This document shows positions 6,282 through 48,221 of a stretch of 49,031 bases of DNA, in pieces (position 1 is the stretch's first letter; each line of letters begins with the position of its first letter). The position numbers and the translations under genes were made by a program. The notes below the pieces were generated by a model. It searched no databases, was not told where the DNA came from, and saw only the letters and a list, made by a program, of their open reading frames with translations. Source of the DNA: Candidatus Limnocylindrales bacterium (GTDB taxonomy: Bacteria; Chloroflexota; Limnocylindria; Limnocylindrales; CSP1-4); contig DASUMJ010000217.1 of assembly GCA_036277775.1 (NCBI GenBank), positions 1 through 49,031 on the forward strand, written 5' to 3'.

Positions 6282-7169
6282 TCAGACGACGGCGACGGGG
6301 TCGACCATCGACCCGGTCGCGCCGCGGATCTTCACGGGCAGGGCGACGAACAGGAACTCGTAAAGTCGCTGGCTTGCGAGCGCCTCGAGGTCGAGGCTCT
6401 CGAGCAGGTAGATCCCGTTCTCGATGAGCAGCAGCGTGTGGACCGGCTGGGGGTTGCCGGTGGGGCCGGGATCCGGGGCCGGCTGGACCTCGTAGGTCTC
6501 GGTGTCCGTCCCGGTCGCGACGATCCCGCGTTCCAGGAGCCAGCGCGCGGCGGAGATGTCCGGGCCGGGCGTCCGGTGGGCGGCCATCCGCTCGGCGTCG
6601 GGCCACAGCGACATGTAGCCGGTCCGGATGACCACGACGTCCCATGGCCGGACCTCGACACCTTCCGCGTCCGCGATCGCCTCCAGCTCCGCCGCGTCGA
6701 TCGGGGCGCCCCTCGGCAGGCAGGCCAGGCCCCGGTGGCCCGCCGCGTCGAGGAGCACGCCCCGGGTGAAGAACGGCGGCAGCGTCGAGGCGTCGAGGTG
6801 GTTCGGGCCGAAGTCCGTCAGGTGGTCGTCTGCCCGTCCCCCGCCGAACCAGTGCATGTCCTCGCCGACGGTCATGTGGGCGAGCGCGTCGACGTGAGCG
6901 CCGGAGTGGGACGTCGCCATGACGTACTCGGCCATGTAGCCGAGACCCGCGTCGTTGACTGGTCCCCATGGGCGGGCGCCGGTGACGCGGATGCCGCGCG
7001 GGGTCCGGGCGTTGAGGACCTGGAACGGCGGGTGCCCGGGGAAGAGCGGCATGCCGGGGAACCGCGCCGCGGCGAGCGAGATCGTCCGGCCCTCGCGGAC
7101 GAGACCCGCGGCGCGCACGACCTGGTCGGCGGGGAGTCGGCCGATCGGGCCGATGTCCGGGGCGGTCAT
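6282..7169 (-). CDS. Cyclase family protein (kynurenine formamidase / isatin hydrolase-like metal amidohydrolase)
   Basis: It has the HxGxHxDxxxH motif 'HSGAHVDALAHM'. The start overlaps the stop of the Mo subunit gene (ATGA at 7166-7169). Confidence 0.88.
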   Translation of the reverse strand: MTAPDIGPIGRLPADQVVRAAGLVREGRTISLAAARFPGMPLFPGHPPFQVLNARTPRGIRVTGARPWGPVNDAGLGYMAEYVMATSHSGAHVDALAHMTVGEDMHWFGGGRADDHLTDFGPNHLDASTLPPFFTRGVLLDAAGHRGLACLPRGAPIDAAELEAIADAEGVEVRPWDVVVIRTGYMSLWPDAERMAAHRTPGPDISAARWLLERGIVATGTDTETYEVQPAPDPGPTGNPQPVHTLLLIENGIYLLESLDLEALASQRLYEFLFVALPVKIRGATGSMVDPVAVV

Positions 7170-9457: not shown

Positions 9458-9984
9458 CGGGCTGCGTCCGGATCGCTGGCCGGCCCGTTTAGGAGCGTGT
9501 CATCAGCATGCCCGGCGGCGGCCAGCACGGCGCCCACGATCTGCTCGTAGCCGGCGCAGCGACAGAGATTGCCGGCGAGGCCCTCCTGGACCTCCGCGAC
9601 CGTCGGGTCGGCGATCCGGTCGAGGAGGTCCTGGGCCGCCATCAGTTGCCCAGGGATGCAGAAACCGCATTGGGCCGCGCCGCGGTCGAGGAAGGCCTGC
9701 TGAAGCCGGCTCAGCCTGGCCCCGTCCGCCAGGCCCTCGACCGTCGTCACGCTTCCGCCGTCGGCCTCGACCGCGAGGACGAGGCACGAGTCCACGATCC
9801 GGCCGTCCAGGCTGACGGTGCAGGCCCCGCACTCTCCGACGAGGCAGCACTCCTTCGTTCCGGTCAAGGCGAGATCGTCGCGGAGGACCTCAAGGAGCGT
9901 ATGGTGGGCGGCCACTTCGACGGCCCGACCCCGGCCGTTGACCGTCAGCTCGATCGCCACGCGGGTTTCTCCGGGCGCCGTCAC
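9454..9984 (-). CDS. (2Fe-2S)-binding small subunit of the Mo-hydroxylase
   Basis: Trimmed to the GTG at 9984, which overlaps the FAD subunit stop (GTGA). Two 2Fe-2S motifs are present: 'CLVGECGACTV' and 'CGFCIPG...CRCAGY'. Confidence 0.93.
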   Translation of the reverse strand: MTAPGETRVAIELTVNGRGRAVEVAAHHTLLEVLRDDLALTGTKECCLVGECGACTVSLDGRIVDSCLVLAVEADGGSVTTVEGLADGARLSRLQQAFLDRGAAQCGFCIPGQLMAAQDLLDRIADPTVAEVQEGLAGNLCRCAGYEQIVGAVLAAAGHADDTLLNGPASDPDAAR

Positions 9985-10859
9985 GGCCGCGCCCCTCCCC
10001 CGCCCGCCGCGAGCCGCGCGACCGCGGTCGCGAGCGCCCGGCGCGCCAGGACCCCGAGCATCGCGAGGCGGTACTCGGGGCTTGCCCGCATCGATCGGGG
10101 CGAGGGGCTGGCTCCTGCGAGCAGCTGCTCGAGGACGACGTCGCGGGCGGCGGCCGTCGCCGTCGGATCGGCCAGCGTGCCGCTCGGGTCGACGCCGAGC
10201 ACCGGGCGGGGCCCGAGGCTGCCGTACGCAAGGCGCGTGACCCCGGCCCCGTCCACCGAGCAGGCGAGCGTGACCGAGGCGAGATCGTGGCCCCGCCGGC
10301 GGGTCCGGCGGACGTGCGTCGATCCGAGGGGGCCGGCGGGCAGCGGCAGCTCGATGCTCGTGACGAGCTCCCCGGGACGGAGGGTCGTCTCGCCGGATCG
10401 GACGAAGAGCTCGTCGATCGGGACCCGCCGCGCACCGTCCGGGCCCACCGCCACGATCTCGGCGCCGAAGACGAGAAGGGCCGGTGCAGTATCGGCGGCC
10501 GGCGAGGCGTTGCAGAGGTTCCCGGCCAGCGTCGCCCGGTTCCTGATCTGAACGGAGCCGACGACCATCGCCGCTTCGGCCAGGGCCGTGAACCGCTGCC
10601 GGATCCGCTCGTCCGCGCCGATGTCGGTCATGACCGCCGTCGCCGGCACCACGAGCCGACCGCCGATCTCGCGGATGGCCGGGTCGAGCTCCGGGATCCG
10701 CTTCAGGTCGACGACGACGGCCGCGCGGGCCGAGCCGTCGCGGAGGCGGATGATGAGATCCGTTCCGCCGGCCAGGACTCGGGCATCGGGCCCGTGGGTG
10801 GCGAGCAGCGCCACGGCCTCGGCGATGCTGGCGGGGCGGGCGTAGCTGAACGGTCGCAT
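9981..10859 (-). CDS. FAD-binding medium subunit of the Mo-hydroxylase (CoxM/XdhB-like)
   Basis: 'MRPFSYARPASIAEAVALL...RVLAGGTDLIIRLR' is a typical FAD_binding_5 N-terminus. The start shares 1 nt with the upstream gene's stop (TGATG at 10859). Confidence 0.9.
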   Translation of the reverse strand: MRPFSYARPASIAEAVALLATHGPDARVLAGGTDLIIRLRDGSARAAVVVDLKRIPELDPAIREIGGRLVVPATAVMTDIGADERIRQRFTALAEAAMVVGSVQIRNRATLAGNLCNASPAADTAPALLVFGAEIVAVGPDGARRVPIDELFVRSGETTLRPGELVTSIELPLPAGPLGSTHVRRTRRRGHDLASVTLACSVDGAGVTRLAYGSLGPRPVLGVDPSGTLADPTATAAARDVVLEQLLAGASPSPRSMRASPEYRLAMLGVLARRALATAVARLAAGGGGARP

Positions 10860-30643: not shown

Positions 30644-31528
30644 CTACCCGCCCGGGAACGGCAGGGTCGGGAGCCTGGCGCCGGCGGAGGGCGGGGTCGC
30701 GTTGATCTCGTGGCAGAGGAGGCAGGTCGAGTCCTCGCGGAGCGCGTGGTCGATCGGCAGCCCGCCCGTCTGGGCCGACTGGTGGCACTCCCGGCAGCCG
30801 ATCGCCGGCTCCAGCACGTGCGGGTACTCGGGCGGTGGCAGCTCCGTCGGCCGGTGGCAGAGCCAGCACTCGTTCTCGTCCTTCGCGACCATGCTCGTGG
30901 GCAGGTGGGCGAACGTCCCGTGGCAGTCGAGGCACTGCTGGTCCTGGAGCTCCGAGTGCGGCTGGGTGATCGACGGGCCTTCCGGCGGGAGCTTGTGGCA
31001 GTTCAGGCACTCGACCTCGGGGATGTCGGTGTGGCCCGGAGCGCTCCGACCGAGGTCCTCGTCGGTGTGGCAGGTGACGCAGCGGCGCCAGCCCTCGAGG
31101 GGATGGCCGATCGCCGGGATCGTCTTCAACCCGCCCGATCCGCCGGTCTCGTGACAGAGGAGGCAGCTGCTGCTCGTCGGGATGTGGGCGAGGCCCATCG
31201 ACATGAGGTCGATCGACGGTTCGGCGGTCGCCCGGTCGGGGCGGCCGGCCGGGTCGGCGAACGAAGTCAGGAAGACGATCGCGAGCAGCCCGATGACGAG
31301 GGCGTTCGCGACGAGGAGCGCCCGGATCGCGAGCTCGATCGGGCCGCGGACGCCCCGGATCCGGAACCGCCGGATGCCGCGCCGGGCAGGCTTCGCCGGC
31401 GGCGTCGCCGCGTCGAGCTCGGGCGCCGTCGCGGACGGCGGCCCGGGCGGCGTCCCGGGCGGCGGCTCGGGGGCCGCGTCGGGGAGCGGCTCGTCCGCGG
31501 GCGGCGGGGGCAGCTCCGGGTCGGTCAT
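30644..31528 (-). CDS. Membrane-anchored heptaheme c-type cytochrome
   Basis: There are seven CxxCH motifs: CLLCH, CVTCH, CLNCH, CLDCH, CWLCH, CRECH, CLLCH. The N-terminus is Pro-rich and followed by one TM helix ('ALLVANALVIGLLAIVFL'). The ATG overlaps the cytochrome b stop (ATGA at 31525-31528). Confidence 0.85.
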   Translation of the reverse strand: MTDPELPPPPADEPLPDAAPEPPPGTPPGPPSATAPELDAATPPAKPARRGIRRFRIRGVRGPIELAIRALLVANALVIGLLAIVFLTSFADPAGRPDRATAEPSIDLMSMGLAHIPTSSSCLLCHETGGSGGLKTIPAIGHPLEGWRRCVTCHTDEDLGRSAPGHTDIPEVECLNCHKLPPEGPSITQPHSELQDQQCLDCHGTFAHLPTSMVAKDENECWLCHRPTELPPPEYPHVLEPAIGCRECHQSAQTGGLPIDHALREDSTCLLCHEINATPPSAGARLPTLPFPGG

Positions 31529-32343
31529 TCGACCTTCTCCAGGAGCTCCGGCCCGCCGTCGCGCGCCTCGAGGATCTCCTCGCGGGTCACGTACTTGAAG
31601 CCGCTGAAGATGCTCGAGAGGAGCCCGTTCTTCTCGAGATGGTCCACGAGGACGCAGCTGTAGAGATGGAAGAGGGAGATCGCGAGGATCGCCCACATCG
31701 CCAGGTGGTGGATGAGCCGGACGAGCTGCGGTCCGAGGACGCCGAGCACCCAGCCGAAGCCCGTCGCACCGGGCTCGGAGCCGAGCAGGCCGTCGAGGGC
31801 GAAGCCGGTGATCGTCTCGACGAGGAGCAGCCCCCAGAGGATCAGGTACGCCGAGGCGGCCAGCTGGTTGTGGCCGAGGATCCGCGGGATCTCCTTGCGC
31901 AGGAACGCGTAGAACGCGGCCTGCCGGAAGACCTCGGTCGCCTGGTTCCAGGTCGTCGGGATGAATGCCGACCAGCGCGCGAACCGGTTACCGGTGAGGA
32001 GCCAGATCACCCGCAGGAGCCCGGACGCGAGCAGGGTGAACGCGGCAATCATGTGGACGAGGCGGACGGTCGTCATCACCGCGCCGCCGGGCGGCAGGAG
32101 GAACGGATCGGCGATGTAGAGCCCGGTGACGCTGAGGACGACGATGCAGGCCGCCGTCACCCAGTGGGTGATCCGGACGGGCACCTCCCAGACGTAGAGG
32201 CGGAAGCGCTCCTCCGCCCGGCCGGCGCCGTGGCCGTGGGCAGGCGCTGCCAGCGTCCCCGGTGCCGCGGTCGTGGCCGGCGTTGCCGGGGCGGGCACGA
32301 CGATGGGCTCGGCGGTGGCGGTCATCGGGGCGACGTCCTCCAT
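31525..32343 (-). CDS. Ni/Fe-hydrogenase b-type cytochrome subunit (HyaC/HupC-like)
   Basis: 'RFRLYVWEVPVRITHWVTAACIVVLSVTGLYI' matches the family N-terminus, and the protein has four TM helices. The ATG shares 1 nt with the large-subunit stop (TGATG at 32341-32345). An alternative start lies at 32325. Confidence 0.85.
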   Translation of the reverse strand: MEDVAPMTATAEPIVVPAPATPATTAAPGTLAAPAHGHGAGRAEERFRLYVWEVPVRITHWVTAACIVVLSVTGLYIADPFLLPPGGAVMTTVRLVHMIAAFTLLASGLLRVIWLLTGNRFARWSAFIPTTWNQATEVFRQAAFYAFLRKEIPRILGHNQLAASAYLILWGLLLVETITGFALDGLLGSEPGATGFGWVLGVLGPQLVRLIHHLAMWAILAISLFHLYSCVLVDHLEKNGLLSSIFSGFKYVTREEILEARDGGPELLEKVE

Positions 32344-34046
32344 CACTGCACCGCGCAGGCCGGGCACGGGTCGAACGAGTGGACCGTCCGAAGGACCTCG
32401 ATCGGATTCGCGAGGTCGGGCACGGGCGTGCCGACGAGGGCCTCCTCGAGCGCGCCCCGGCGGCCCCGGCTGTCGCGCGGCGAGAGGTTCCAGGTGCTCC
32501 CGTCGACGACCTGGTACGCGGTGACGCGGCGGTCCCGGATCCGGAGCCAGTGGCCCACGGTGCCCTTCCCGGACTCGCCGAGCGACCAGCCCTCGGCCTC
32601 GGCCGGCCAGGTGGCGGGATCCCAGCGCGAGATGTCGGCGAACGCGAGGTCGCCCGCCGCGAGGTTCGCGACGAGGTCCGCGAGCCAGGCGTCGAGGCGG
32701 TCGGCCACGATCTTCGCTTCGATCGCCCGGGCGACGGTCCGGCCGAGCGTGCTCGAGAAGGCGTCCAGGTCGAGGTCGAGGTTCTCGAGGACCCGGGCGA
32801 CGGTCCGGCCGGCATCGCCGCCGACGGCGTGGGCGACGAGCAGCCGGGCGGCCGGCCCCACCTCCACCGGGTCGTCGAAGTAGCGCGGCGCCTTCGACCA
32901 GCTGTACCGGGCGGCGCCCTGGAGCGTGGTGACCGGCGGCGGCGGGCCCTGGTAGTGGGGGTCGGTGGATCCGTCATACGGGTGCCGGACCTCGGCGCCC
33001 GAGCCGCGGTCGTGGGTCGTGGCGACGCCCTCGCCGAATCCCGCCTGGTCGACCGTGTCGAGCTCGTCGAGGACCCCGTCCATCAGGCGCCCGCGGGGCA
33101 GCAGGAGGGCCGGATCGTCCTCGTCATCCTCCGGGAACTCTCCGGCCGCGAGGTAGTTGCCGATGCCCCGCCCGACACCCGCCTGGTCGCGATAGATGTC
33201 GGCGAGGTAGAGGACGTCCGGCAGGTAGACCTCGTCGACGAACGCCCTCGTGCGGGTGACGAGATCGGCGATCTGGGCGAGCCCGCGCTCCCCGAGCGCC
33301 GCGGGCGCTTCCGACTGCGGCCGGCGCGGGTGCTCGCCCGTCGTGGCCCGGGCGGGGCCGCCCCACGGCGGCGTCAGGGCGAGACCGCCGACGAGGAAGG
33401 TCTGCGGGTGGGGGCTCTTGCCGCCGAAGAAGGTGTGGAGCCGGGTCATGCCACGGCGCCAGTCCAGCGCCTCGAGGGCGTGGGCCGCGACCATGAGATT
33501 CGCCGACGACGTGAGGCGGTGCGCGGCCCCGCCGGCCCCGGCCCGCCCGAACGTCCCGAGGTCGCCCGACGCGACGAGGCTCGCCAGCCGCTCGCGCGCC
33601 CGACGGAAGTAGACGAGGTCGGTGCGCGGCCCCTCGGCGACGGAGCGCGCGATCCCGGACGCCGTCGCCGGATCCCCCGATGCCCCGGCGACGAGATCCG
33701 CCCAGTCCGGAGCGTGCCGCTGGTAGAAGCCGGTCACGTGGCTCGTCACGAGCTGCGACCCGGCCACGAGGTTCCGGACGAGCCGCGCATTCGGTGGGAT
33801 GCGGATCTTCAGCGCCCGTTCGACGGCCCGGACCGACGCGAGGCCGTGGACCCCGTTGCAGGACCCGCAGATCCGCTCCGCGAGGAGCCAGGCGTCGCGC
33901 GGGTCGCGCCCCACGAGCGACCGCTCGATCCCGCGGAACATCGTGGCGGCGCTCCAGGCGTCGACGACGACGCCCCGCTCGACCTCGACCTCGATTCGGA
34001 GCTGGCCGCCGACCCGCGTCACGGGATCGATGACGAGGCGGGTCAT
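32343..34046 (-). CDS. [NiFe]-hydrogenase large subunit (group 1-like, atypical motifs)
   Basis: It has 'FRGIERSLVGRDPRDAWLLAERICGSCNGVH' (the N-terminal Ni-Cys pair), 'GGKSPHPQTFLVGG', and the C-terminal 'LRTVHSFDPCPACAVQ' followed directly by the stop. ATGA overlap with the small subunit gene. Confidence 0.93.
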   Translation of the reverse strand: MTRLVIDPVTRVGGQLRIEVEVERGVVVDAWSAATMFRGIERSLVGRDPRDAWLLAERICGSCNGVHGLASVRAVERALKIRIPPNARLVRNLVAGSQLVTSHVTGFYQRHAPDWADLVAGASGDPATASGIARSVAEGPRTDLVYFRRARERLASLVASGDLGTFGRAGAGGAAHRLTSSANLMVAAHALEALDWRRGMTRLHTFFGGKSPHPQTFLVGGLALTPPWGGPARATTGEHPRRPQSEAPAALGERGLAQIADLVTRTRAFVDEVYLPDVLYLADIYRDQAGVGRGIGNYLAAGEFPEDDEDDPALLLPRGRLMDGVLDELDTVDQAGFGEGVATTHDRGSGAEVRHPYDGSTDPHYQGPPPPVTTLQGAARYSWSKAPRYFDDPVEVGPAARLLVAHAVGGDAGRTVARVLENLDLDLDAFSSTLGRTVARAIEAKIVADRLDAWLADLVANLAAGDLAFADISRWDPATWPAEAEGWSLGESGKGTVGHWLRIRDRRVTAYQVVDGSTWNLSPRDSRGRRGALEEALVGTPVPDLANPIEVLRTVHSFDPCPACAVQ

Positions 34047-35257
34047 GCCGGCGCTCCCGGAGTGCCCGCCGGTTCATCGGGCGGCGGCACCGGTGCCGGA
34101 GCCTCCGCGACGACCTCGTCCGCTGCACGGGCCGCCCGGGCCGCCTGCGCGGCCCGCCGCCGGGCGATGAACCCGTTCCGGACCTCGCGGGCGTAGGTCG
34201 CGGCGCCGTGGGCGACCGTGACCGCCCCGACCGCACCGACGAGCCCGAGGCCGATCTGGTCCGCGGTCAGGTTCGGGACGAACGGGATCGTCGCCGGGAG
34301 CCGAGCGTAGGCCGGGCCCATCGAGTCCCAGAACCGGGGCATGACGCAGCCGACGCAGCCGTGGCCGGCCTTGATGTTCCAGCTCGTCTTCGACGCGTAC
34401 TGCGCGGTCGCGCAATTCGCGAACGTCTCGGGTCCCTTGCACCCGAGCTTGTAGAGGCACCAGCCCTTCTGGGCTCCCTCGTCGCCCCAGGCCAAGGCGA
34501 ACTCGCCGAACTCGTAGTGGGCCCGCCGTTCGCACTGGTTGTGGATCAGGTCGCCGTACGCGAAGTACGGCCGGCGGCGCCCGTCCGCGGGCGGCAGCTC
34601 GCCGAACGTGAGGTAGTGGACGATCGTCGCCACGAGGTTGTCGACGTTCATCGGGCTGCCGGGCAGGACGATGAGCCGGGACGTGTCGACGACGTCCGCG
34701 ACGCCGACGGACCGGGTCAGGTCGGGGCTCGCCGCGGCCGCGCCGCCGTCGAACGCGCACGACCCGACCGCGATCGTCGCGATCGCGCCGTCGGAGACCT
34801 CGCGGACGAGGTCGCGGAACGGGCGGCCGCCGATCGCGCAGGCCATCCCGTCCTCGGCCGTCGGGATGGCACCCTCGACGATCGCGAGGTAGCCGTTCGG
34901 GTGGCGCGTCATCGTCGTGGTCCGGGCGAGGGTCGCGGCTTCGCCGGATTCCGCCATGAGCGATTCGAGGTAGCCGACCGAGACGACCTCGAGCAGCAGT
35001 TCCCCGATCGTCGGCTTCGCCGCGGCGAGGAACGCCTCCATCTCGCCGCCGCAGCCCTGCCCCCGGAGCCAGATGACCGGGAAGCGCGGCGCGGCCTCGA
35101 CCGCGGCCGCGATCCGCGGGGCGTAGGTGGCCGGAAGCGCGAGCGCGGCCGCCATGGCGGCGCTGAACCGGAGGAACGCCCGGCGCGTCATCCCGTGGCG
35201 GACGAGCGCGGCATAGAGCCCGTCATCCGGCCTGGTCATCGGTTCCACGTCACTCAT
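34043..35257 (-). CDS. [NiFe]-hydrogenase small subunit, Tat-exported, with C-terminal membrane anchor
   Basis: The twin-arginine signal is '[20 protein letters not shown]'. Distal and medial cluster motifs are 'HNQC','[12 protein letters not shown]','ANC','GHGCVGC'. The C-terminal TM helix is '[19 protein letters not shown]'. An alternative start lies at 35239. Confidence 0.93.
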
Positions 35258-35528
35258 CGGTCGGCCGCCGTCGAGCCGGACCCGGAGGTGGGTCGCAGCA
35301 GTCGGGCCGGCAGCCCTTCCGTGGCTCGATGATGGGCGGCGGATCGGGCCCGGCCACGAGCCGTCGGTCCGCAACGACCGGGCCAAACGGCATCGAGCAG
35401 GTGGCCGAACGGCCGGGGCGGCCGGGCGCATGGGCGGCCCGGCGCCGCGGCCCCGCGGCGGCGCCCTCGCTTCATGGCGCCTAGACTCGGTTCGGCAGGT
35501 CCCCGGCCTCCATGACCAGGAGGATGAC

Positions 35529-37964
35529 GTGACGAAGACCCACGACGCGGTCGACGCAGCCGGAACAGCCGGCGCAGCCGGGACAGCCGGTGCAGCCGGT
35601 GCAGCCGGCCCCCTCTCCCCCGCCGAGCTCGACCGGATCGACGCCTGGTGGCGGGCCGCCAACTACCTGTCCGTCGGCCAGATCTACCTCCTCGACAACC
35701 CGCTCGTCCGGGAGCCGCTGCGCCCCGAGCACGTGAAGCCCCGGCTCCTTGGCCACTGGGGCACGACGCCGGGAATCAACTTCATCTACGCCCACATGAA
35801 TCGCGTGATCCGGAGCTGGGACCTCGATGCGATCTACGTCATCGGGCCCGGCCACGGGGGCCCGGCGACGGTCGCCAACGCGTACCTCGAGGGGACCTAC
35901 TCGGAGGTCTACCCGAGCATCACCCGCGACCTCGACGGCCTGCGGCGGCTCTTCCGCCAGTTCTCGTTCCCGGGCGGCATCCCGAGCCACGTCGCGCCCG
36001 AGACGCCCGGTTCCATCCACGAGGGCGGCGAGCTCGGGTATGCGCTGTCGCACGCCTACGGGGCCGCCTTCGACAACCCCGATCTCGTCGTCTGCTGCGT
36101 CGTCGGGGACGGCGAGGCGGAGACGGGTCCGCTCGCCACGAGCTGGCACTCGAACAAGTTCCTCAACCCGGTGACGGACGGCGCGGTCCTGCCGATCCTC
36201 CACCTGAACGGCTACAAGATCGCGAACCCGACGGTCCTCGCGCGGATCCCCGAGTCGGAGCTCCGGTCGCTCCTCGAGGGTTACGGACACCACCCGTACT
36301 TCGTGACCGGCGACGAGCCGGCGGTGGTCCACCAGCAGATGGCGGCGGTCATGGACACCGTCATCGAGGAGATCCACGCGATCCAGCGAGCGGCCCGCGA
36401 GGAGGGGGCGACCGCGCGACCGGCCTGGCCGATGATCGTCCTCCGGACGCCGAAGGGCTGGACCGGCCCGAAGGAGATCGACGGGAAGCCCGTCGAGGGG
36501 ACGTGGCGCTCCCACCAGGTCCCGATGGGCGAGGTCCGGACCAACGCCGCGAACCGCCAGGTCCTCGAGGACTGGCTCCGGAGCTACCACCCCGAGGAGC
36601 TGTTCGACGAGGCCGGGACGCTCGTGCCGGACCTGGCGTCGCTCCCGCCCCGCGCGCACCGGCGGATGAGCGCAAACCCGAACGCCAACGGCGGGCTCCT
36701 GCTTCGCGACCTCGCCATGCCCGACTTCCGGGACTACGCGGTCGACGTCCCAGCGCCGGGAACGACGACGAGCGAGGCGACGCGGGTCCTCGGCGGGTTC
36801 CTTCGCGACGTCATGCGGCGGAACAGCTCGAGCTTCCGGGTGTTCGGGCCGGACGAGACGGCCTCGAACCGGCTCGGCGCGCTGTTCGAGGCCACGGACA
36901 AGGCGTGGATGGCCGAGGTCCTGCCGACCGACGAAGGCCTGGCGCCCGACGGCCGGGTCATGGAGGTGCTCTCGGAGCACCAGTGCCAGGGCTGGCTGGA
37001 GGGCTACCTGCTCACCGGCCGGCACGGCCTCTTCAACTGCTACGAGGCCTTCATCCACATCATCGATTCGATGTTCAACCAGCATGCGAAGTGGCTGAAG
37101 GTGACGGCCGACATCCCGTGGCGCCGCCCGATCGCGTCGCTCAACTACGTCCTGAGCTCGCTCGTCTGGCGCCAGGACCACAACGGCTTCAGCCACCAGG
37201 ACCCAGGCTTCATCGACCACGTCGTGAACAAGAAGGCCGAGCACATCCGGGTCTACCTGCCGCCCGACGCGAACACCCTCCTGTCGGTCGGCGACCACTG
37301 CCTCCGGAGCCGCAACTACGTCAACGTGATCATCGCGGGGAAGCAGGCGGCACCGAACTGGCTGCCGATGGACCAGGCGATCCTCCACTGCTCGCGGGGC
37401 ATCGGGATCTGGGAGTTCGCGAGCAACGACGAGGGCGGCGAGCCGGACGTCGTCCTGGGCTGCGCGGGCGACATCCCGACCCTCGAGACGCTCGCCGCGG
37501 TCGACATCCTCCGGCGCGAGCTGCCCGAGCTGAAGGTCCGGGTCGTCAACGTCGTCGACCTCATGCGACTCCAACCGCCCTCGGAGCACCCGCACGGCCT
37601 GTCGGACGGCGAGTTCGACTCGCTGTTCACGACCGACAAGCCGATCGTGTTCGCCTACCACGGCTACCCGTGGCTGATCCACCGGCTCACGTATCGCCGC
37701 CGGAACCACGGCAACCTCCACGTCCGCGGGTACAAGGAGGAGGGCACGACGACGACCCCGTTCGACATGGTCATGCTCAACGACCTCGATCGGTTCCACC
37801 TCGTGCTCGACGTCATCGACCGGGTGCCGGGGCTCGCCGACCGGGCCGGCCGCCTCCGCCAGCGGATGGTCGACCGGCGGCTCGAATGCCGGGCGTATAC
37901 CCGCCTCGAGGGTGAGGACGCCCCGGAGATCAGAACATGGGCCTGGCCCGGCGACGGCCAATGA
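35529..37964 (+). CDS. xfp: Phosphoketolase (xylulose-5-P/fructose-6-P phosphoketolase)
   Basis: GTG 35529 lies 4 nt after AGGAGGA. It has '[15 protein letters not shown]', '[10 protein letters not shown]' and '[15 protein letters not shown]'. 811 aa. Confidence 0.95.
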
Positions 37965-39136
37965 GCGACGGCGACGGCTCGGCGCCGACCGGCCACGGGG
38001 TCGCGGGTCCGACCGGCGACGGGGCCGCGGGGCCGATCCTCGTCGTCAATGCCGGCTCGAGCAGCCTGAAGCTCCGGCTCCTCGACGCGCTCGACGCCGT
38101 CGTCGGCACGGCGGACCTGCCGGCACCGCGCGGCGCCGCCGACGCATCCGCGATCGCGGGTGCGATCGCCGGCTTCGGGGCGCCCGGGTCGATCCGCGCG
38201 GTCGGTCACCGGATCGTCCACGGCGGCACCCGGTACCGGACCGCGGTCCGCCTCGACGCCGAGGTGGAGGCCGGGATCCGGGCCCTCACGGACCTGGCGC
38301 CGCTCCACCAGCCGAAGTCGCTCGCCGCGCTCGCCGCGGTTCGCGCGGCGCTTCCAGAGACGCCGGCGGTCGCCTGCTTCGACACCGCGTTCCACGCGAC
38401 GATGCCGCCCGCCGCCACGACCTACGCGATCCCGCCGGAGTGGCGGAAGCGCTGGGCGCTCCGCAAGTACGGCTTCCACGGCCTGTCCCACGCGTACGCC
38501 TCCCGGCGGGCGGCGGCCATCGTCGGGCGGCCCCTCGAGGAGCTCCGGATCGTGACCTGCCACCTCGGGGCGGGCGCCTCGCTCGCGGCGGTCCAGGGCG
38601 GCCGCTCGGTCGACACGACGATGGGCTTCACGCCCCTCGACGGGCTCGTCATGGCGACCCGCTCCGGGACGATCGACCCGGGGCTCGTGCTGTGGCTGGC
38701 GTCGCACGTCGGCATGCCGCCCGAGGAGCTCGCGGCGACGCTCGAACATCGGTCCGGGCTGCTCGGGCTCGCCGGGACCGACGACATGCGCGAGATCCTC
38801 GCGGCCGAGGCGAGCGGCGACGAGGCCGCGGCGCTCGCGATCGCCGTCTACCTCCACCGCCTCACGGCCTCGATCGCGGCGATGGCGGCCGCGATGGACG
38901 GCCTCGACGTCATCGTGTTCACGGGCGGTGTCGGCGAGCGGTCGGCGCCGATCCGCGAGCGGGCTGCGGCCGGCCTCGGGTTCCTCGGCGTCGCCCTGGA
39001 CGCGGCGAAGAACACCGAGGTGGCGGGCGACGCCGAGATCGGGCGGGCCGGCGCCACGGTCCGTGCGGTCGTCGTCGTTGCCCGCGAGGACCTCGAGATC
39101 GCGCGCGAGGTCCGGGCGGTGCTCGACCCCGGCTGA
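37961..39136 (+). CDS. ackA: Acetate kinase
   Basis: The ATG overlaps the xfp stop (ATGA at 37961-37964). It has '[15 protein letters not shown]', 'HRIVHGG' and 'GFHGLSH'. Confidence 0.93.
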
Positions 39137-44008: not shown

Positions 44009-45118
44009 TCAGGCCAGCCCGCGCCGGATCACCTCCGCGACCGCGCCGGCGCGAGCCGCCTTGCCGGAGGTCCCGAGCTTGCCGTAGGCGTTCGAAAGGT
44101 GGCGTTCGACGGTCCGGATGCTCAGCCCCAGCGAGGCGGCAATCTCGGCGTTCGCGAGACCCTTGGCGGCCGCGCGGATGACATCCAGCTCGCGTGGCGA
44201 GAGCGACTCGACTCCCGGCTCGCCGGAGTCGGCGAGCGTCCGTCGATCTGGCTCCAGGAAGGCCGTCATCTCGGCCATGAAGACCGGCCAGGCGGGCTCG
44301 TCGGCGAGGAGGATGTGGTTCCGGCTCTCGAGGGGCACCATGCGAGCGTTCGAGATTCGCGATGCTGCCGCCACCGCAGCCGTGAACGGGGTTGCCCGCT
44401 CGCCGACGGCATGGAGGATGAGCGTCGGCGCCTCGATCTTCGGCAGCTCGTCCCAGACGTCGGTCTGCTGTCGCGCGATCCGCGCGCTGACGGCGTTCTC
44501 CGGCGAGGTCGACATTCGCTGGAGGGCGTCGAACCACTGCATCTGCGGCTCGTCGGCGTCAGGAATGTAGATCGAGGTGAAGACGCGGCGGAAGATCGGG
44601 TCCTCCTTGGCCCAGCCCACTCGGATCATGCTCCGGTAGGTCTCCTCCTCGGGGAGCGCCTCGGGGTCGAACGTTCGAAGTCGGCCCGATCCCGAGCCGT
44701 AGAGCGCCAGCCGGGTCACGCGATCCGGATTCCGAGCCGCGTAGGCCAGCGCCACGACCGAGCCACCGGACATGCCCAGGAGCGCGAACCGCTCCAAACC
44801 CGCGCTCTCGATCACCGCCTCCAGGTCGCGGAGGCGCGGCTCGAGCGAGAAGTCGGCGACCGCCCAGTCCGACATCCCGAAGCCGCGCTCGTCGTAACGC
44901 ACGAGCGTGGAGATCGCGCCCAGGTCATCGAGGAAGTGGCGCCAGACGGGGCTCTGCCAATCGTGCTGGAGGTGGCTCAGCCAGCAGGAGACCACGACGA
45001 GTGGCGGTCCGCTGCCGTGCGCCGACCAGGCGATCCGGACGCCGTCGTCGCTCGCGGCGAACCGAACCTGCTGGCCGGGGTCGGTGCGAGGGTGCCTGGA
45101 CGGACGCGCGACGACCAT
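44009..45118 (-). CDS. Alpha/beta hydrolase domain fused to a LuxR-type C-terminal HTH
   Basis: Trimmed to ATG 45118. The hydrolase part has 'PPLVVV', '[10 protein letters not shown]' and the nucleophile elbow 'LLGMSGGS'. The C-terminal part has '[44 protein letters not shown]'. Confidence 0.85.
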
Positions 45119-45269
45119 GGTCGGCCCATCGTACCGGCCGGCGTCCAGCGACGGGCTTTCGCGGCATCGGGATCTGTCGCGGCCGCGGCGCGCGGAGGGT
45201 CCCGCACACCGAGACGGCAGATCCACCACGCGCAACCCCCGGGTGCGGGCTCGGACGGCTGCCGCCACC

Positions 45270-46802
45270 ATGTGGGCAATGCGGCCCACCCTGCGCGTCC
45301 TGGAGCCCGAGCTCATCGACCGCATCCTCGACGAGGCACTGCGCGTCCTCGCGACCTCGGGCATGGAGGTCCGCGGGGCGGAGCTGCGACGCCGACTCCT
45401 GGCAGCCGGGCTGCCCCTCGACGCCGCCGGCGAGCGGGTCCTCTTCCCGCGCGACGTCGTCGAGGCGGCGATCGCGAGCGCACCGTCGTCCTTCACGCTC
45501 TTCGATCGCGACGGCAGTCCCCACGCCGACCTCGGTGGGGATCGCGTCCACTTCGTCCCCGGCTCGTCGGGGCTGAAGGTCCAGGACCATCGGACCGGCG
45601 AGGTCCGGCTGGCCGGGACGACCGACTTCGTCGAGTACGTCCGGCTCGCAGACGGGCTCCGGAACATCGCCTACCTCGCGACGGCCTTCTCGACGAACGA
45701 CGACATCGAGGTCGCGGTCGCCGATGCGTGGCGGCTCTTCCTCGTCCTCACGAACTCGAAGCGGCCGGTCGTCTCGGGCGCGTTCACCGAGCATGGCGTC
45801 GAGCGGATGGTCGAGATGCAGCAGCTCTTCCGCCGCGACCGGGCGGACCTCGTCGCCCGCCCGATGTCGATCTTCACGATCACCGCATCGGGCAACTTTC
45901 GGTACAGCGAGGACTCCTGCCAGAACCTCATCGACTGCGTCGAGGCCGGGATCCCGGTCGAGATCGTGCCGGTCACGCTCCAGGGGCTGATCGCCCCCGT
46001 GACGACCGTCGGCGCGACGGTCTTCCACGCGGTCGACGTCCTCGCCGGGATCACGATGGCCCAGGTCGTCCGCCCGGGGGCGCCGGTGCTGTTCGGTGGC
46101 GCGCCGGCCACGTTCCACATGAAGATCGCGAGCTCGCCGATGGCGGCCATCGAGGCGCTCCAGCTCGACGTCGCCTACGTCGAGGTGGCCAAGGCCCTGG
46201 GCCTGCCCTGCCAGTCGTACATGGCGCTCTCGGACGCGAAGGTCCTGGACGCCCAGGCCGGAGCCGAGACGTTCGGGAGCGCGCTGCTCGCGGCGCTGGC
46301 CGGCGTGAACAGCGTGTCGGGCCCCGGGATGCTCGACTTCCTCCTCGTCTTCAGCCTGCCGAAGCTGCTCTTCGACGACGAGGTCTGCGGGCAGGTCCTC
46401 CACTTCGTCCGGGACGTCCATCCGGTCGACGACCTGCCCGTCGACGCCCTCCTCGACCAGCTCCGCGCAGACCAGCACCTGATCATGGCCGAGCACACCA
46501 CCGCGCACTGGCCGACGGAGCTCTACCTTCCGTCGCGGCTCTGGGAGCGCGACAACCGCGAGAACTGGGTGAAGGCCGGCGCCGCCGACACAGCGGAACG
46601 GGCCGCGGTCGAGGTGGACCGCCGCCTCGCGGCGTACCAGCCGGTCGAGACGGACCCGGTCGCCGTCGCGGAGCTCGAGCGGATCATCCGGAGCGGCCTG
46701 CAGGACCAGACCGAGCTGCCTCTTGTGCCGCCCGCCGACGCACCGGTGGCGCTGGCCGAGGCGGGCGACGCCCGCCGACGGAACCGCCGCCGCGGGGGCT
46801 GA
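45270..46802 (+). CDS. Trimethylamine methyltransferase (MttB) superfamily protein, non-pyrrolysine type
   Basis: The N-terminus '[24 protein letters not shown]' and the overall ~500-aa length fit the MttB family. There is no in-frame TAG. An alternative start lies at 45279. Confidence 0.8.
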
Positions 46803-46865: not shown

Positions 46866-48221
46866 ATGAGACGACTGACCGCAGTCCTGGCGTCCGTCAT
46901 CCTCGTCGCGGCCTGTGCCGGCGGCACCTCGCCGAGCCCGTCGCCGACCCAGGCGCCCACCGCCACGCCAGGCGACACGGCAGCTCCGGCGCCGTCGCCG
47001 ACCGAGCCCTCCGCGTCGACGATCGAGCTCGCCCGATCTGACGTCGCTCGGCTCGCGGGCGACCCGGCCCGTGCTGCCGCCGCCGCGGCGGCCCTGAACG
47101 CCTTCGGCCTCGACGTCTATGGACGCCTGGCCGCGGCGCCGGGCAACGTCGTGGTGTCGCCGGCGAGCATCGCCATCGCCCTGTCGATGGCCCGCGCCGG
47201 CGCCCGCGGGGCGACCGCCGCCGAGATGGACGCTGTCCTGCGGAACCTTGGGGCCGAGGATCTGGCGGATGCGGCCAGCGCCCTCGACGCAGCGCTTGCC
47301 GCCCGAACCGGCACCTTCGAGGACGCGGCCGGTGACGCACACGAGGTCACCCTCCGGATCGCGAACGCGCTCTTCGCGCAGCGGGACATGGCGCTCGTGT
47401 CGGCCTTCCTCGACGCGATGGCCGCGCGCTACGGGGCCGGCATCTGGACGGTCGACTTCATGACCGATCCGGAGGCCGCGCGCGTGGCGATCAACGCCTG
47501 GGTCGCCGAACAGACAGAGGACCGGATCGAGGAGATCCTCAAGCCAGGCCAGATCACCGCCGCGACCCGCCTGGCGATCGCCAACGCCATCTACCTCAAG
47601 GCGCCGTGGTTCTACCCGTTCGACGAGGACGAGACCGTGGGCGGGACGTTCACGGCGATGGACGGCAGCACGGTCCAGGCGCCGTTCATGCACCTCGTCA
47701 GCACCCATGTCAGCGGGGCCAAGGGCAGCGGCTGGGTCGCCGTGGAGCTGCCGTACGTCGGACGCAGCCTTGCGATGACCCTCATCCTGCCCGACGACCT
47801 CGGAGCCTTCGAGTCGACGTTCGATGCCGCAGCCTTCGGCGCGATCACGGGCGCGCTCCAGCCGGCCCAGGTCGACCTGAGGATGCCGGCCTTCGACACC
47901 GAATCACGGGTCGAGCTCTCGTCCTTGCTCGCGGCCCTCGGGATGCCGACGGCATTCGACGCCGCCGCCGACTTCTCCGGCATGACCACCGAGGAGAAGC
48001 TCCACATCGGCTTCGTCATCCACCAGGCGAACATCACCGTCGACGAGGCGGGTACCGAAGCGGCGGCCGCCACGGTCGTGGGCATGGACACGAGCGGCGG
48101 CGGGCCGACCCTGGAGATCGACCTCACGCTCGACCACCCGTTCCTGTTCGTGCTCCGAGACGTTCCGACCGGCGCGATCGTGTTCATGGGCCGCGTCGAC
48201 GACCCCGGCACGACGCCGTGA
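46866..48221 (+). CDS. Serpin family protein with lipoprotein signal
   Basis: The lipobox is 'ILVAAC-AGG'. The serpin core has 'NVVVSPASIAIALSMA'. The hinge/RCL is 'EAGTEAAAATVVGMDTSGG', and the C-terminal motif is 'DHPFLFVLRD'. Confidence 0.9.
   Translation: MRRLTAVLASVILVAACAGGTSPSPSPTQAPTATPGDTAAPAPSPTEPSASTIELARSDVARLAGDPARAAAAAAALNAFGLDVYGRLAAAPGNVVVSPASIAIALSMARAGARGATAAEMDAVLRNLGAEDLADAASALDAALAARTGTFEDAAGDAHEVTLRIANALFAQRDMALVSAFLDAMAARYGAGIWTVDFMTDPEAARVAINAWVAEQTEDRIEEILKPGQITAATRLAIANAIYLKAPWFYPFDEDETVGGTFTAMDGSTVQAPFMHLVSTHVSGAKGSGWVAVELPYVGRSLAMTLILPDDLGAFESTFDAAAFGAITGALQPAQVDLRMPAFDTESRVELSSLLAALGMPTAFDAAADFSGMTTEEKLHIGFVIHQANITVDEAGTEAAAATVVGMDTSGGGPTLEIDLTLDHPFLFVLRDVPTGAIVFMGRVDDPGTTP

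What the first reader, a model, noticed from the sequence alone, without database searches (positions are those of the whole stretch)
30644..32343. A heptaheme c-type cytochrome is stop-start fused to the hydrogenase cytochrome b gene
The small subunit, large subunit, cytochrome b and cytochrome c genes are linked by ATGA/TGATG overlaps at 34043-34046, 32341-32345 and 31525-31528, so they form one translational unit. The last protein has a Pro-rich N-terminus, one TM helix and seven CxxCH motifs. These appear in a partly repeated arrangement: 'CLLCHETGGSGGLKTIPAIGHPLEGWRRCVTCH' versus 'CRECHQSAQTGGLPIDHALREDSTCLLCH'. Quinone-reducing HyaC-type and cytochrome-c3-type electron exits are normally alternatives. 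Having both in one operon suggests an extended wire from H2, or from whatever this atypical enzyme oxidises, to an extracytoplasmic acceptor or from an extracellular donor.
Basis: partly seen in the sequence, partly recalled or inferred. Interest (0 to 1): 0.65.

Follow-up and report, generated by a model that had tools for sequence, protein, structure and literature searches.

The report
Heptahaem cytochrome subunit of soil hydrogenase
The last gene of a hydrogenase operon from an uncultured soil Chloroflexota bacterium encodes a membrane-anchored cytochrome with seven haems; it is always found with one unusual, undescribed hydrogenase lineage and probably gives that enzyme a second electron route besides the quinone pool.

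Summary
On the minus strand, hydS (35257-34043), hydL (34046-32343), a HyaC-type cytochrome b gene (32343-31525) and a 294-aa multihaem cytochrome c gene (31528-30644) are joined by ATGA/TGATG/ATGA overlaps. The last protein has a Pro-rich N-terminus, one TM helix and seven CxxCH motifs, the only seven in the whole window.

All 119 aligned homologues have exactly seven CxxCH and seven further invariant His, which fits seven bis-His haems in a roughly 24-residue repeat. The family occurs only in Ca. Limnocylindria-type Chloroflexota MAGs. It always follows hydS-hydL-cytB, usually after a maturation protease gene. Twelve relatives carry a System II cytochrome c synthesis gene just downstream.

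When loci were sampled from the large subunit instead, the heptahaem gene tracked one clade exactly. That clade has lost the "universal" proton-gate glutamate. Canonical sister hydrogenases lack the heptahaem, but some carry other cytochromes c (DmsE-type decahaem, c7 trihaem).

The closest paralogue ends a Qrc-like cytochrome/FeS/NrfD cluster. I read the protein as a dedicated outer-face haem wire linking the hydrogenase and cytochrome b to the cytochrome c network. Direction, partner and catalytic competence are untested. I found no prior description, and rate it a new variant of a known kind.

The parts
34043..35257 (-). hydS: [NiFe]-hydrogenase small subunit, 404 aa. It has a twin-arginine signal (RR at residues 24-25) and a C-terminal TM anchor from about residue 337. 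Medial and distal FeS ligands are canonical. In the proximal cluster, the Cys20 equivalent is Glu72 (35042-35044) and the Cys149 equivalent is Ser201 (34655-34657).
   Evidence: TIGR00391 at 2.4e-106, PF14720 and PF01058. Residue-level alignment to R. eutropha HoxK. Family columns.
32343..34046 (-). hydL: [NiFe]-hydrogenase large subunit, 567 aa. The four Ni-Fe Cys are present (C60, C63, C561, C564). The proton-gate Glu is replaced by Gly13 (34008-34010) and the pendant Arg by Lys494 (32565-32567). The protein ends ...DPCPACAVQ with no C-terminal extension.
   Evidence: PF00374 at 1.8e-154. Best solved relative is 3MYR_B at 6e-147, with residue alignment. Family columns. C-termini.
31525..32343 (-). 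cytB: HyaC/HydC-type dihaem cytochrome b, 272 aa. His60, 97, 158, 212, 213 and 226 are invariant.
   Evidence: TIGR02125 at 135.8 bits (cut-off 121.5) and PF01292. Aligns to E. coli HyaC 4GD3_A at 1.2e-20. His columns are 70/70.
30644..31528 (-). MHC: signal-anchored heptahaem c-type cytochrome, 294 aa. This is the finding.
31346..31528 (-). MHC residues 1-61: a Pro/Ala-rich tail predicted to be cytoplasmic, ending in a basic stretch (RRGIRRFRIRGVRG). It is variable or absent in homologues.
31262..31345 (-). MHC residues 62-89: the single TM helix (signal anchor). N-in/C-out orientation is inferred from the positive-inside rule.
   Evidence: AF2 helix 62-89 with pLDDT 81-95. Hydropathy maximum at residues 63-95.
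30710..31186 (-). Haem domain. Seven CxxCH motifs lie at 31151-31165, 31067-31081, 30995-31009, 30920-30934, 30854-30868, 30782-30796 and 30710-30724. Seven invariant putative distal His are H115, 142, 166, 191, 208, 237 and 261.
30647..30709 (-). C-terminal Pro/Ser/Ala/Gly-rich tail ending in GG.
34043..34046 (-). ATGA stop/start overlap between hydS and hydL.
32341..32345 (-). TGATG stop/start overlap between hydL and cytB. An alternative GTG start at 32367 would also overlap.
31525..31528 (-). ATGA stop/start overlap between cytB and MHC, with GGAG at 31537-31540.

Best explanation
The ORF at 31528-30644 encodes a lineage-specific extra subunit, or obligate redox partner, of a membrane-bound, TAT-exported group-1 [NiFe]-hydrogenase-type complex. 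The host is a soil bacterium of the Ca. Limnocylindria type (Chloroflexota).

**Proposed mechanism.**
1. The protein inserts N-in/C-out through one TM helix.
2. Seven c-type haems, all bis-His, are attached on the outer face by a System II (Ccs) synthase.
3. They form a compact chain with one haem per roughly 24 residues.
4. This chain sits beside HydS and cytochrome b. It gives electrons a second path between the distal FeS cluster or outer haem b and other outer-face c-type cytochrome complexes. The canonical path through cytochrome b to menaquinone remains available.
5. The most likely partner is the Qrc/NrfCD-like cytochrome/FeS/NrfD/cytochrome complex, whose last subunit is this protein's closest paralogue.

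**Shown here:**
- the gene structure and overlaps;
- the invariance of the motifs;
- the strict genomic linkage to this hydrogenase clade;
- linkage to a ccs gene in some relatives;
- the context of the paralogue.

**Inferred:**
- membrane topology;
- covalent haem attachment;
- physical association with the complex;
- the direction of electron flow and the identity of the partner.
For: - **Operon structure.** The four genes overlap in one operon.
- **Haem sites.** Seven CxxCH and seven extra His are invariant in 119 homologues, and all 119 have exactly seven motifs. The haem domain has exactly 14 Cys and 14 His.
- **Distribution.** The family has 361 database homologues. It appears in 80 species-level genome loci, nearly all labelled Chloroflexota or Limnocylindria.
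- **Linkage from the MHC side.** Every locus with enough upstream DNA has hydS-hydL-cytB in front of the MHC gene. In 61 loci a HycI/HupD-type protease gene lies between cytB and MHC.
- **Reverse test from the HydL side.** In metagenome contigs, 15 of 15 Glu-less HydL loci with at least 1.9 kb downstream carry the heptahaem gene. None of 38 canonical-Glu loci does.
- **Haem attachment machinery.** Twelve relatives carry a System II cytochrome c biogenesis gene about 0.6 kb downstream on the same strand. It scores 204.6 bits on TIGR03144 (cut-off 187.6) and 5.7e-42 on PF01578.
- **The rest of the complex looks intact.** Cytochrome b keeps all conserved His. HydS keeps its C-terminal anchor and its medial and distal ligands.
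- **Paralogue context.** The closest paralogue family (35-44% identity, 7 CxxCH) ends a cytochrome/FeS/NrfD/cytochrome cluster. It also overlaps the preceding membrane-subunit gene. That cluster lies directly upstream of the hydrogenase operon in L087 and next to hypA and a hypB-like gene in L088.
- **Weak expression hint.** A sediment metatranscriptome holds contigs of 170 and 203 nt, 93-98% identical, on 30922-31173.
Against: - There is no direct evidence of haem attachment, of complex formation or of H2 oxidation.
- Structure prediction failed (pLDDT 47.5 and 51.8), so no docking geometry is available.
- The hydrogenase may be catalytically impaired. The whole clade lacks the proton-gate Glu. 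The window enzyme also has Lys for the pendant Arg and only two of the four proximal-cluster Cys. The 'H2' part of the model is therefore uncertain for this particular organism.
- The window holds no ccs, hyp or Qrc-like genes.
- One genome (L056) keeps the MHC gene behind only a hydS signal stub, so the MHC can persist without the hydrogenase, at least briefly.
- The co-distribution with Glu loss probably reflects a single evolutionary event, so it does not prove functional coupling.
- The RNA evidence is marginal, and DNA carry-over cannot be excluded.
Confidence: 0.6

Rival explanations
1. Mco-like module. Cytochrome b and the heptahaem act together as a menaquinol:cytochrome c oxidoreductase, like the VhtC-type cytochrome b plus 7-11-haem pair proposed in ANME-2. 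Under this reading the MHC talks to the quinone pool through haem b, not to the hydrogenase FeS chain. H2-derived electrons would reach it only through the quinone pool or haem b.
For: - A hydrogenase-type cytochrome b next to a 7-11-haem cytochrome, without hydrogenase genes, is described as Mco in ANME-2a/b (PMC9012536).
- Both this MHC and its paralogue are encoded immediately after a quinone-interacting membrane subunit, HyaC-type cytochrome b or NrfD.
Against: - In 61 loci the MHC gene follows the protease gene, not cytB.
- No locus shows cytB plus MHC without hydSL.
- L056 keeps the MHC without cytB.
- Homology to ANME McoB was not tested.
Confidence: 0.15
2. Electron reservoir for oxygen protection. 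Seven low-potential haems would store electrons that flow back through the FeS chain. This would re-reduce an O2-attacked active site in an aerobic soil bacterium whose enzyme lacks the six-Cys proximal cluster of O2-tolerant hydrogenases.
For: - The hosts come from oxic soils.
- The proximal cluster lacks the supernumerary Cys and is itself atypical.
- The MHC is exclusive to this hydrogenase clade.
Against: This is purely inferential. Nothing in the sequence distinguishes a store from a wire. Sister enzymes carry DmsE-type or c7 cytochromes, which are typical transfer proteins.
Confidence: 0.1
3. Extracellular electron transfer. The haem wire and its Pro/Ser-rich tail reach through the envelope to reduce, or take electrons from, insoluble or humic substrates.
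For: - The haem domain is predicted to face outward, and there is a Pro/Ser/Ala/Gly-rich C-terminal tail.
- The same haem unit builds giant proteins with 76-131 CxxCH motifs.
- Some sister hydrogenase loci carry DmsE/MtrA-type decahaems.
Against: - Seven haems span only a few nanometres.
- No additional outer cytochrome is encoded in the operon.
- The closest paralogue belongs to a membrane quinone-linked complex.
Confidence: 0.1
4. The hydrogenase-like core no longer oxidises H2, at least in the window's sub-lineage. The MHC and cytochrome b would then serve a different redox function, with HydSL acting as an FeS scaffold or as a catalyst for something else.
For: - Glu-to-Gly at the proton gate is found across the whole clade (0 of 60 have Glu).
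- In the window the pendant Arg is Lys, and in its nearest relatives it is Gly.
- The window has lost two of the four proximal-cluster Cys, the C-terminal extension and the linked protease.
- E28 is described as a 'universal proton gate' and R509 as 'strictly conserved', and R509K is 100-fold slower (PMC8020662).
Against: - All four Ni-Fe Cys are kept in 58 of 60 sequences.
- Most of the clade keeps the Arg (48 of 60), the C-terminal extension and the maturation protease.
- hypA and a hypB-like gene lie near the paralogous cluster.
- A Gly at this position could admit a water molecule as a substitute proton relay.
Confidence: 0.05

Closest known systems
HyaABC / HydABC / HoxKGZ membrane-bound [NiFe]-hydrogenases (E. 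coli Hyd-1, W. succinogenes, R. eutropha MBH)
   Same: A TAT-exported small subunit with a C-terminal anchor, a large subunit with four Cys, a four-helix dihaem cytochrome b, and the gene order S-L-cytB(-protease).
   Different: An extra heptahaem cytochrome c gene. No proton-gate Glu. The proximal cluster lacks the Cys20 equivalent. The window enzyme also has Lys for Arg509 and no C-terminal extension or protease.
Allochromatium vinosum HynSL (PDB 3MYR; Isp-type by my own knowledge of HydDB)
   Same: It is the best solved relative of the large subunit, at 494 bits and 6e-147 over the full length.
   Different: From my own knowledge, that enzyme uses Isp1/Isp2 partners rather than HyaC plus a cytochrome c. 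It also has the canonical TRIEGH and PRG motifs.
Desulfovibrio periplasmic hydrogenase, tetrahaem cytochrome c3 and the Qrc complex (own knowledge)
   Same: A periplasmic hydrogenase hands electrons to bis-His multihaem cytochromes. These feed a cytochrome/FeS/NrfD quinone reductase. A Qrc/DsrOP-like cluster with a paralogous heptahaem exists in the same bacterial class.
   Different: Here the cytochrome is membrane-anchored, has seven haems, does not reach the class III c3 model's cut-off, and coexists with a HyaC-type cytochrome b.
Mco of ANME-2 archaea (VhtC-like cytochrome b plus a 7-11-haem cytochrome c; PMC9012536)
   Same: A hydrogenase-type cytochrome b is genetically paired with a multihaem cytochrome of similar haem count.
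   Different: Mco has lost the hydrogenase catalytic genes, whereas here they are always present. Homology between the cytochromes c was not tested.
TM-anchored multihaem subunits of NrfD-type complexes (ActA of ACIII, QrcA, NhcA; own knowledge)
   Same: An N-terminal anchor with an outer-face haem chain that wires a membrane quinone module. The closest paralogue is encoded right after an NrfD gene.
   Different: No significant sequence match to any solved cytochrome (best PDB profile E = 0.0076). The partner membrane subunit here is a cytochrome b.

Membership tests
Group 1 membrane-bound respiratory [NiFe]-hydrogenase (HyaABC type) | Twin-arginine signal on the small subunit | tested here: met
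   The TRRAFLRF motif is visible and TIGR00391 covers residues 11-357. The TAT models themselves score just below their cut-offs (PF10518 16.9 vs 22.7; TIGR01409 15.9 vs 16.7).
Group 1 membrane-bound respiratory [NiFe]-hydrogenase (HyaABC type) | Four Cys ligands of the Ni-Fe site (L1 RxCGxC, L2 DPCxxC) | tested here: met
   C60, C63, C561 and C564 are present. They are kept in 58 of 60 relatives.
Group 1 membrane-bound respiratory [NiFe]-hydrogenase (HyaABC type) | Proton-gate glutamate (E28 in Hyd-1; TRIEGH motif) | tested here: not met
   The window has TRVGGQ. None of 60 clade members has Glu (G 49, N 7, D 2, S 2). Sister lineages have TRIEGH.
Group 1 membrane-bound respiratory [NiFe]-hydrogenase (HyaABC type) | Pendant arginine (R509 in Hyd-1) | tested here: not met
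   It is Lys494 in the window. In the clade it is Arg in 48 of 60, Gly in 10, Lys in 1 and Gln in 1.
Group 1 membrane-bound respiratory [NiFe]-hydrogenase (HyaABC type) | Small-subunit FeS ligands (proximal 4 Cys; medial 3 Cys; distal His + 3 Cys) | tested here: not met
   The medial and distal ligands are present. In the proximal cluster the Cys20 equivalent is Glu (N/D/E across the clade) and the Cys149 equivalent is Ser in the window.
Group 1 membrane-bound respiratory [NiFe]-hydrogenase (HyaABC type) | C-terminal extension of the large subunit, cleaved by a dedicated endopeptidase | tested here: not met
   The window protein ends at ...CAVQ and the window holds no protease gene. Most relatives have a 15-23-aa extension, and 61 loci have a HycI-type gene.
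Group 1 membrane-bound respiratory [NiFe]-hydrogenase (HyaABC type) | HyaC/HydC-type dihaem cytochrome b with conserved His | tested here: met
   TIGR02125 scores 135.8, above its 121.5 cut-off. It aligns to 4GD3_A. Six His are invariant in 70 of 70 sequences.
c-type multihaem cytochrome (covalent haem, bis-His) | CxxCH motifs with matching distal His, in an exported domain | tested here: met
   Seven CxxCH and seven further invariant His. The signal-anchor topology is inferred. A ccs gene is linked in 12 relatives.
c-type multihaem cytochrome (covalent haem, bis-His) | Haem actually attached covalently | not testable with these tools
   This needs haem staining or mass spectrometry.
Class III tetrahaem cytochrome c3 | Match to the class III model; a soluble four-haem fold of about 110-130 aa | tested here: not met
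   PF02085 scores 21.2, below its 22.9 cut-off. The looser PF14537 scores 26.4 against 25. The protein has seven haems and is TM-anchored.
NrfB-like pentahaem cytochromes | Whole-protein match to NrfB models | tested here: inconclusive
   PF22678 scores 32.8 (cut-off 27) but covers only residues 149-202. The NCBIfam NrfB equivalogs score 33 and 28 bits against cut-offs of 184 and 167.
NapC/NrfH/CymA quinol dehydrogenases | TM-anchored tetrahaem matching the NrfH model | tested here: not met
   TIGR03153 scores 20.2 bits against a cut-off of 134.2.
ANME Mco (cytochrome b plus MHC) | Hydrogenase-type cytochrome b adjacent to a 7-11-haem cytochrome, with no hydrogenase catalytic genes | tested here: not met
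   The adjacency is met in the window, but hydSL are always present. Homology of the cytochromes c was not tested.

The most novel reading that the evidence does not exclude
The heptahaem gene marks a re-engineered [NiFe]-hydrogenase lineage. Loss of the otherwise universal proton-gate glutamate and gain of a built-in seven-haem wire would be parts of one functional shift. One possibility is an enzyme poised at high potential that passes H2-derived electrons directly into the cytochrome c and oxidase network of aerobic soil bacteria. Another, for the window's sub-lineage (Lys or Gly for the pendant Arg, no C-terminal processing, degraded proximal cluster), is a hydrogenase-derived redox module that no longer works on H2.
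Probability: 0.15. Interest if true: 0.85.

Novelty: new variant of a known kind. Interest (0 to 1): 0.6.

Why it matters
Ca. Limnocylindria (Ellin6529/Edaphomicrobia) are abundant, uncultured soil and freshwater bacteria, and their hydrogen metabolism has so far been discussed only in terms of group 1h/1l enzymes. This locus shows a second, membrane-bound enzyme lineage in the class. It has a dedicated seven-haem subunit and lacks the glutamate regarded as the universal proton gate of [NiFe]-hydrogenases.

If the enzyme is active, it would show that the canonical proton pathway is dispensable. It would also show that a quinone-linked hydrogenase can be wired directly into the cytochrome c network of a bacterium thought to have a single membrane. 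If it is inactive, it would be a natural example of a hydrogenase scaffold put to another use. Either result bears on how soil bacteria route electrons from trace gases, and on which residues a [NiFe] catalyst really needs.

Tried and rejected
- **Structure prediction.** AlphaFold2 on the full protein with 15 sequences gave pLDDT 47.5. The haem domain with 119 sequences gave 51.8. Only the TM helix is confident.
- **Fold and sequence comparison.** Foldseek against the PDB gave no matches. A profile search of PDB sequences found nothing better than E = 0.0076.
- **Promoter and terminator scan.** No sites were found around the operon. This says little for a 72% G+C genome.
- **RNA reads.** Two runs from a study that holds the sequence gave depth of 0.4 or less. 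The only hint is a few short contigs in a sediment metatranscriptome.
- **Literature.** I searched hydrogenase with Limnocylindria, Ellin6529, heptahaem, multihaem plus cytochrome b, and group 1m. No description of an S-L-cytB-MHC hydrogenase turned up.
  - Groups 1l and 1m were considered and rejected. They are relatives of group 1h with a different gene order. The window's HydL matches the 1h structure 5AA5 only at 1e-26.
  - A search for 'HynABC3' found nothing.
- **Maturation genes in the window.** Neither hyp nor ccs genes are present.
- **HydDB subgroup.** This could not be assigned, because no reference set was available.
Full report
**1. What is in the window**

The window is about 72% G+C. 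Four genes lie head to tail on the minus strand:

| Gene | Coordinates | Length |
|---|---|---|
| hydS | 35257-34043 | 404 aa |
| hydL | 34046-32343 | 567 aa |
| cytB | 32343-31525 | 272 aa |
| MHC | 31528-30644 | 294 aa |

A GGAG lies 8 nt upstream of the MHC start.

Family searches give the following:
- HydS is a hydrogenase small subunit (TIGR00391, 2.4e-106).
- HydL is a large subunit (PF00374, 1.8e-154).
- CytB is a Ni/Fe-hydrogenase b-type cytochrome (TIGR02125, 135.8 bits against a cut-off of 121.5).
- The last protein gives only weak, partial hits to generic multihaem models (NrfB-like, c7, c3_2).

The MHC frame has GC3 of 0.97. All seven CxxCH motifs found anywhere in the six-frame translation of the 49-kb window lie in this ORF. 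Its haem domain has exactly 14 Cys and 14 His. There is one hydrophobic helix (residues 62-89; AF2 pLDDT 81-95). It is preceded by a strongly basic stretch, so I infer an N-in/C-out signal anchor. That puts the haems on the same side as the TAT-exported hydrogenase.

**2. The cytochrome family**

The protein has 361 database homologues. The named ones come from Chloroflexota or Ca. Limnocylindrales MAGs. In alignments of 15 and 119 sequences, the seven CxxCH motifs and seven further His (H115, 142, 166, 191, 208, 237, 261) are invariant. Every member has exactly seven motifs. That is the signature of seven bis-His haems.

The spacing is periodic (H-x7-CxxCH-x11-13). Non-overlapping dihaem segments align to one another. 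The Pro-rich N-terminus is not conserved.

Two structure predictions failed for the haem domain (pLDDT 47.5 and 51.8). Foldseek found nothing. No solved cytochrome matches at the sequence level (best E = 0.0076).

**3. Genomic linkage, tested in both directions**

*Starting from the cytochrome.* A scan of one genome per species returned 80 loci. Nearly all are labelled Chloroflexota, Limnocylindria or 'uncultured Chloroflexia'. In every locus with enough upstream DNA, hydS, hydL and cytB precede the MHC gene.

In 61 loci a HycI/HupD-type maturation protease gene lies between cytB and the MHC gene. The common arrangement is therefore hydS-hydL-cytB-protease-MHC, and the window's four-gene form is a minority.

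The one exception, L056, keeps only the signal-peptide stub of hydS, fused in front of the MHC gene. It looks like a deletion.

*Starting from the large subunit.* A scan of JGI metagenome contigs returned 80 loci, from 70% down to 44% identity.
- All 15 loci whose HydL lacks the proton-gate Glu and that have at least 1.9 kb downstream carry the heptahaem gene.
- None of the 38 loci with the canonical TRIEGH motif does.
- Fisher's test gives p of about 1.6e-13. The pattern probably reflects one evolutionary event, so I read it as a shared clade character and not as proof of coupling.

**3b. Maturation**

Neither the window nor its flanks hold ccs or hyp genes. In 12 related loci, however, a System II cytochrome c biogenesis gene lies about 0.6 kb downstream of the MHC gene on the same strand. 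It scores 5.7e-42 on PF01578 and 204.6 bits on TIGR03144 (cut-off 187.6). This is the best indirect evidence that the product is a real c-type cytochrome.

Expression evidence is thin. Reads from two RNA runs were negligible. A sediment metatranscriptome holds two short contigs, 93-98% identical, on 30922-31173.

**4. The enzyme it belongs to is atypical**

The nearest solved large subunit is A. vinosum 3MYR at 494 bits. Residue-level alignment shows TRVGGQ where canonical enzymes have TRIEGH.

Across 60 clade members, none has Glu at this position: Gly 49, Asn 7, Asp 2, Ser 2. This Glu (E28 in Hyd-1) is described as 'a universal proton gate'. The pendant Arg (R509) is described as 'strictly conserved', and R509K is 100-fold slower (PMC8020662).

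Other departures from the canonical enzyme:
- **Pendant Arg.** It is Arg in 48 of 60 clade members, but Lys in the window and Gly in its closest relatives.
- **Proximal FeS cluster.** The Cys20 equivalent is Asn, Asp or Glu across the clade. The same substitution (mostly Asn) occurs in many canonical-Glu sister loci, so it is not specific to this clade. The window also has Ser for Cys149. The medial and distal ligands and the C-terminal anchor are normal.
- **C-terminal processing.** In the window and in nine related loci, HydL has no C-terminal extension, and none of those nine has the protease gene in the cluster.

The four Ni-Fe Cys are kept in 58 of 60 sequences. Cytochrome b keeps six invariant His. 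The clade is therefore still built like a Ni-Fe enzyme. Its catalytic competence is an open question, above all in the window's sub-lineage.

**5. Relatives of the cytochrome elsewhere**

A profile search of 1.84 billion representative proteins found 863 hits.

The closest paralogue family (35-44% identity, seven CxxCH) is also from Limnocylindria. It ends a four-gene cluster:
- a six-haem cytochrome;
- a DsrO/NrfC/QrcC-like FeS protein;
- an NrfD-type membrane protein;
- the heptahaem.

The heptahaem gene again overlaps the stop of the membrane-subunit gene. In L087 this cluster lies directly upstream of a hydS-hydL-cytB-MHC operon on the same strand. In L088 a variant with an eight-haem cytochrome lies next to hypA and a hypB-like gene.

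The same haem unit also builds giant proteins of 2,095-3,592 aa with 76-131 CxxCH motifs.

**6. Is cytochrome b plus cytochrome c unusual?**

Canonical-Glu sister loci from soil and peat metagenomes show other cytochromes c near the hydrogenase genes:
- Six carry a DmsE/MtrA-family decahaem gene downstream on the same strand. It scores 255-265 bits on TIGR03508 (cut-off 192). Five of the six also have cytB.
- Three carry a c7-type trihaem gene right after the protease gene (TIGR04257, 50-54 bits; cut-off 40).
- Several more have decahaem genes on the opposite strand.

Linking a c-type cytochrome to a HyaC-type hydrogenase thus recurs with unrelated cytochromes. This strengthens the idea that these enzymes exchange electrons with the periplasmic cytochrome network. 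It makes the window's case one variant of a wider theme that, as far as I could find, has not been described.

**7. Mechanism I commit to (confidence about 0.6)**

The heptahaem is a dedicated, membrane-anchored subunit or partner of the HydSL-cytochrome b complex. It provides an outer-face haem chain between the distal FeS cluster or outer haem b and other c-type cytochrome complexes. The most plausible partner is the Qrc-like complex that carries its paralogue. The cytochrome b to menaquinone route remains available.

Shown: operon structure, motif invariance, two-way linkage, ccs linkage and paralogue context. Inferred: topology, haem attachment, physical association, and the direction and partner of electron flow.

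Rivals:
- an Mco-like quinol:cytochrome c module (0.15);
- an electron store for oxygen protection (0.1);
- extracellular electron transfer (0.1);
- a hydrogenase-derived module that no longer uses H2 (0.05).

**8. Comparison and novelty**

The complex works like a HyaABC-type membrane-bound hydrogenase with a built-in equivalent of the Desulfovibrio cytochrome c3. The cytochrome b plus MHC pairing resembles the Mco proposed for ANME-2 (PMC9012536).

It fails several defining features of canonical group 1 enzymes. Across the clade these are the proton-gate Glu and a full set of proximal-cluster Cys. In the window they also include the pendant Arg and C-terminal processing. The cytochrome does not belong to the c3, NrfB or NrfH families by their curated cut-offs.

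Literature searches found no description of this arrangement. Groups 1l and 1m, the hydrogenases so far reported for this class or for soils, are different enzymes.

My verdict is a new variant of a known kind, with interest 0.6.

Noticed in passing
window 34002-34019 (HydL residues 10-15); L001-L083 and L090-L169: The whole MHC-linked hydrogenase clade lacks the 'universal' proton-gate glutamate. The motif is TRxGGx instead of TRIEGH, and 0 of 60 sequences have Glu. Sister lineages at 44-52% identity keep it.
   Followed up: yes
window 32343-32372 and 32565-32567: HydL ends ...DPCPACAVQ with no C-terminal extension, and has Lys494 where the pendant Arg should be. Nine related loci also lack the extension, and none of them has the maturation protease gene in the cluster. 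The nearest relatives have Gly at the Arg position.
   Followed up: yes
window 35042-35053 and 34655-34657 (HydS): The proximal FeS cluster ligands are atypical. The Cys20 equivalent is Glu (Asn/Asp/Glu across the clade, and Asn in many canonical-Glu relatives too). The Cys149 equivalent is Ser in only three of 54 aligned sequences, the window among them.
   Followed up: partly
L085 6021-9810; L086 5973-9807; L087 265-4065; L088 4767-8897: A Qrc/DsrOP-like cluster (six-haem cytochrome, FeS protein, NrfD, then a hepta- or octahaem paralogue of the window's cytochrome) occurs in Limnocylindria. In L087 it lies directly upstream of the hydrogenase operon. In L088 it lies next to hypA and a hypB-like gene.
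   Followed up: partly
L089 9817-11301; also L010-L013, L021, L025, L030/31, L045, L076, L084: A System II cytochrome c biogenesis gene (TIGR03144/PF01578) and an unknown 162-aa ORF follow the MHC gene on the same strand in 12 relatives.
   Followed up: yes
P0122, P0128, P0124, P0125, P0130, P0137 (representative library): Giant multihaem proteins of 2,095-3,592 aa with 76-131 CxxCH motifs are built from the same roughly 24-residue haem unit, with up to 33 matched stretches. Their organisms are unknown.
   Followed up: partly
L125, L128, L140, L145, L152, L160 (decahaem); L144, L155, L156 (trihaem); L141, L150, L154, L166, L169 (opposite strand): Some canonical-Glu sister hydrogenase loci from soil and peat metagenomes carry DmsE/MtrA-family decahaem genes or c7-type trihaem genes next to hydSL. 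Most also have cytB and the protease gene, but L145 has no cytB hit. This hints at H2 linked to periplasmic or extracellular cytochrome chains in other phyla.
   Followed up: partly
L056 7838-8762: Only the TAT-signal stub of hydS remains, directly followed by the MHC gene. The rest of hydS, hydL and cytB are missing. This is either a natural deletion or an assembly artefact.
   Followed up: partly
L026 3523-13351: The whole five-gene cluster appears twice in tandem with near-identical match scores. This is either a duplication or an assembly artefact.
   Followed up: no
window 30647-30709; alignment A2: The cytochrome ends in a Pro/Ser/Ala/Gly-rich tail (median 23 aa). In 48 of 119 homologues the last two residues are Gly-Gly. 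This may be a processing or anchoring signal.
   Followed up: no
window 35430-39136 (+): Phosphoketolase (xfp) and acetate kinase genes lie divergently upstream of hydS. The same neighbourhood is kept in L001. The hydrogenase thus sits among sugar-phosphate genes (transketolase, transaldolase, ABC transporter) and not among hyp genes.
   Followed up: no
window 7166-10859 (-), 44907-46802 (+), 46866-48221 (+): Other genes in the window: a molybdopterin dehydrogenase of the CoxL/xanthine dehydrogenase type with its FAD subunit, an MttB-family methyltransferase homologue, and a serpin.
   Followed up: no
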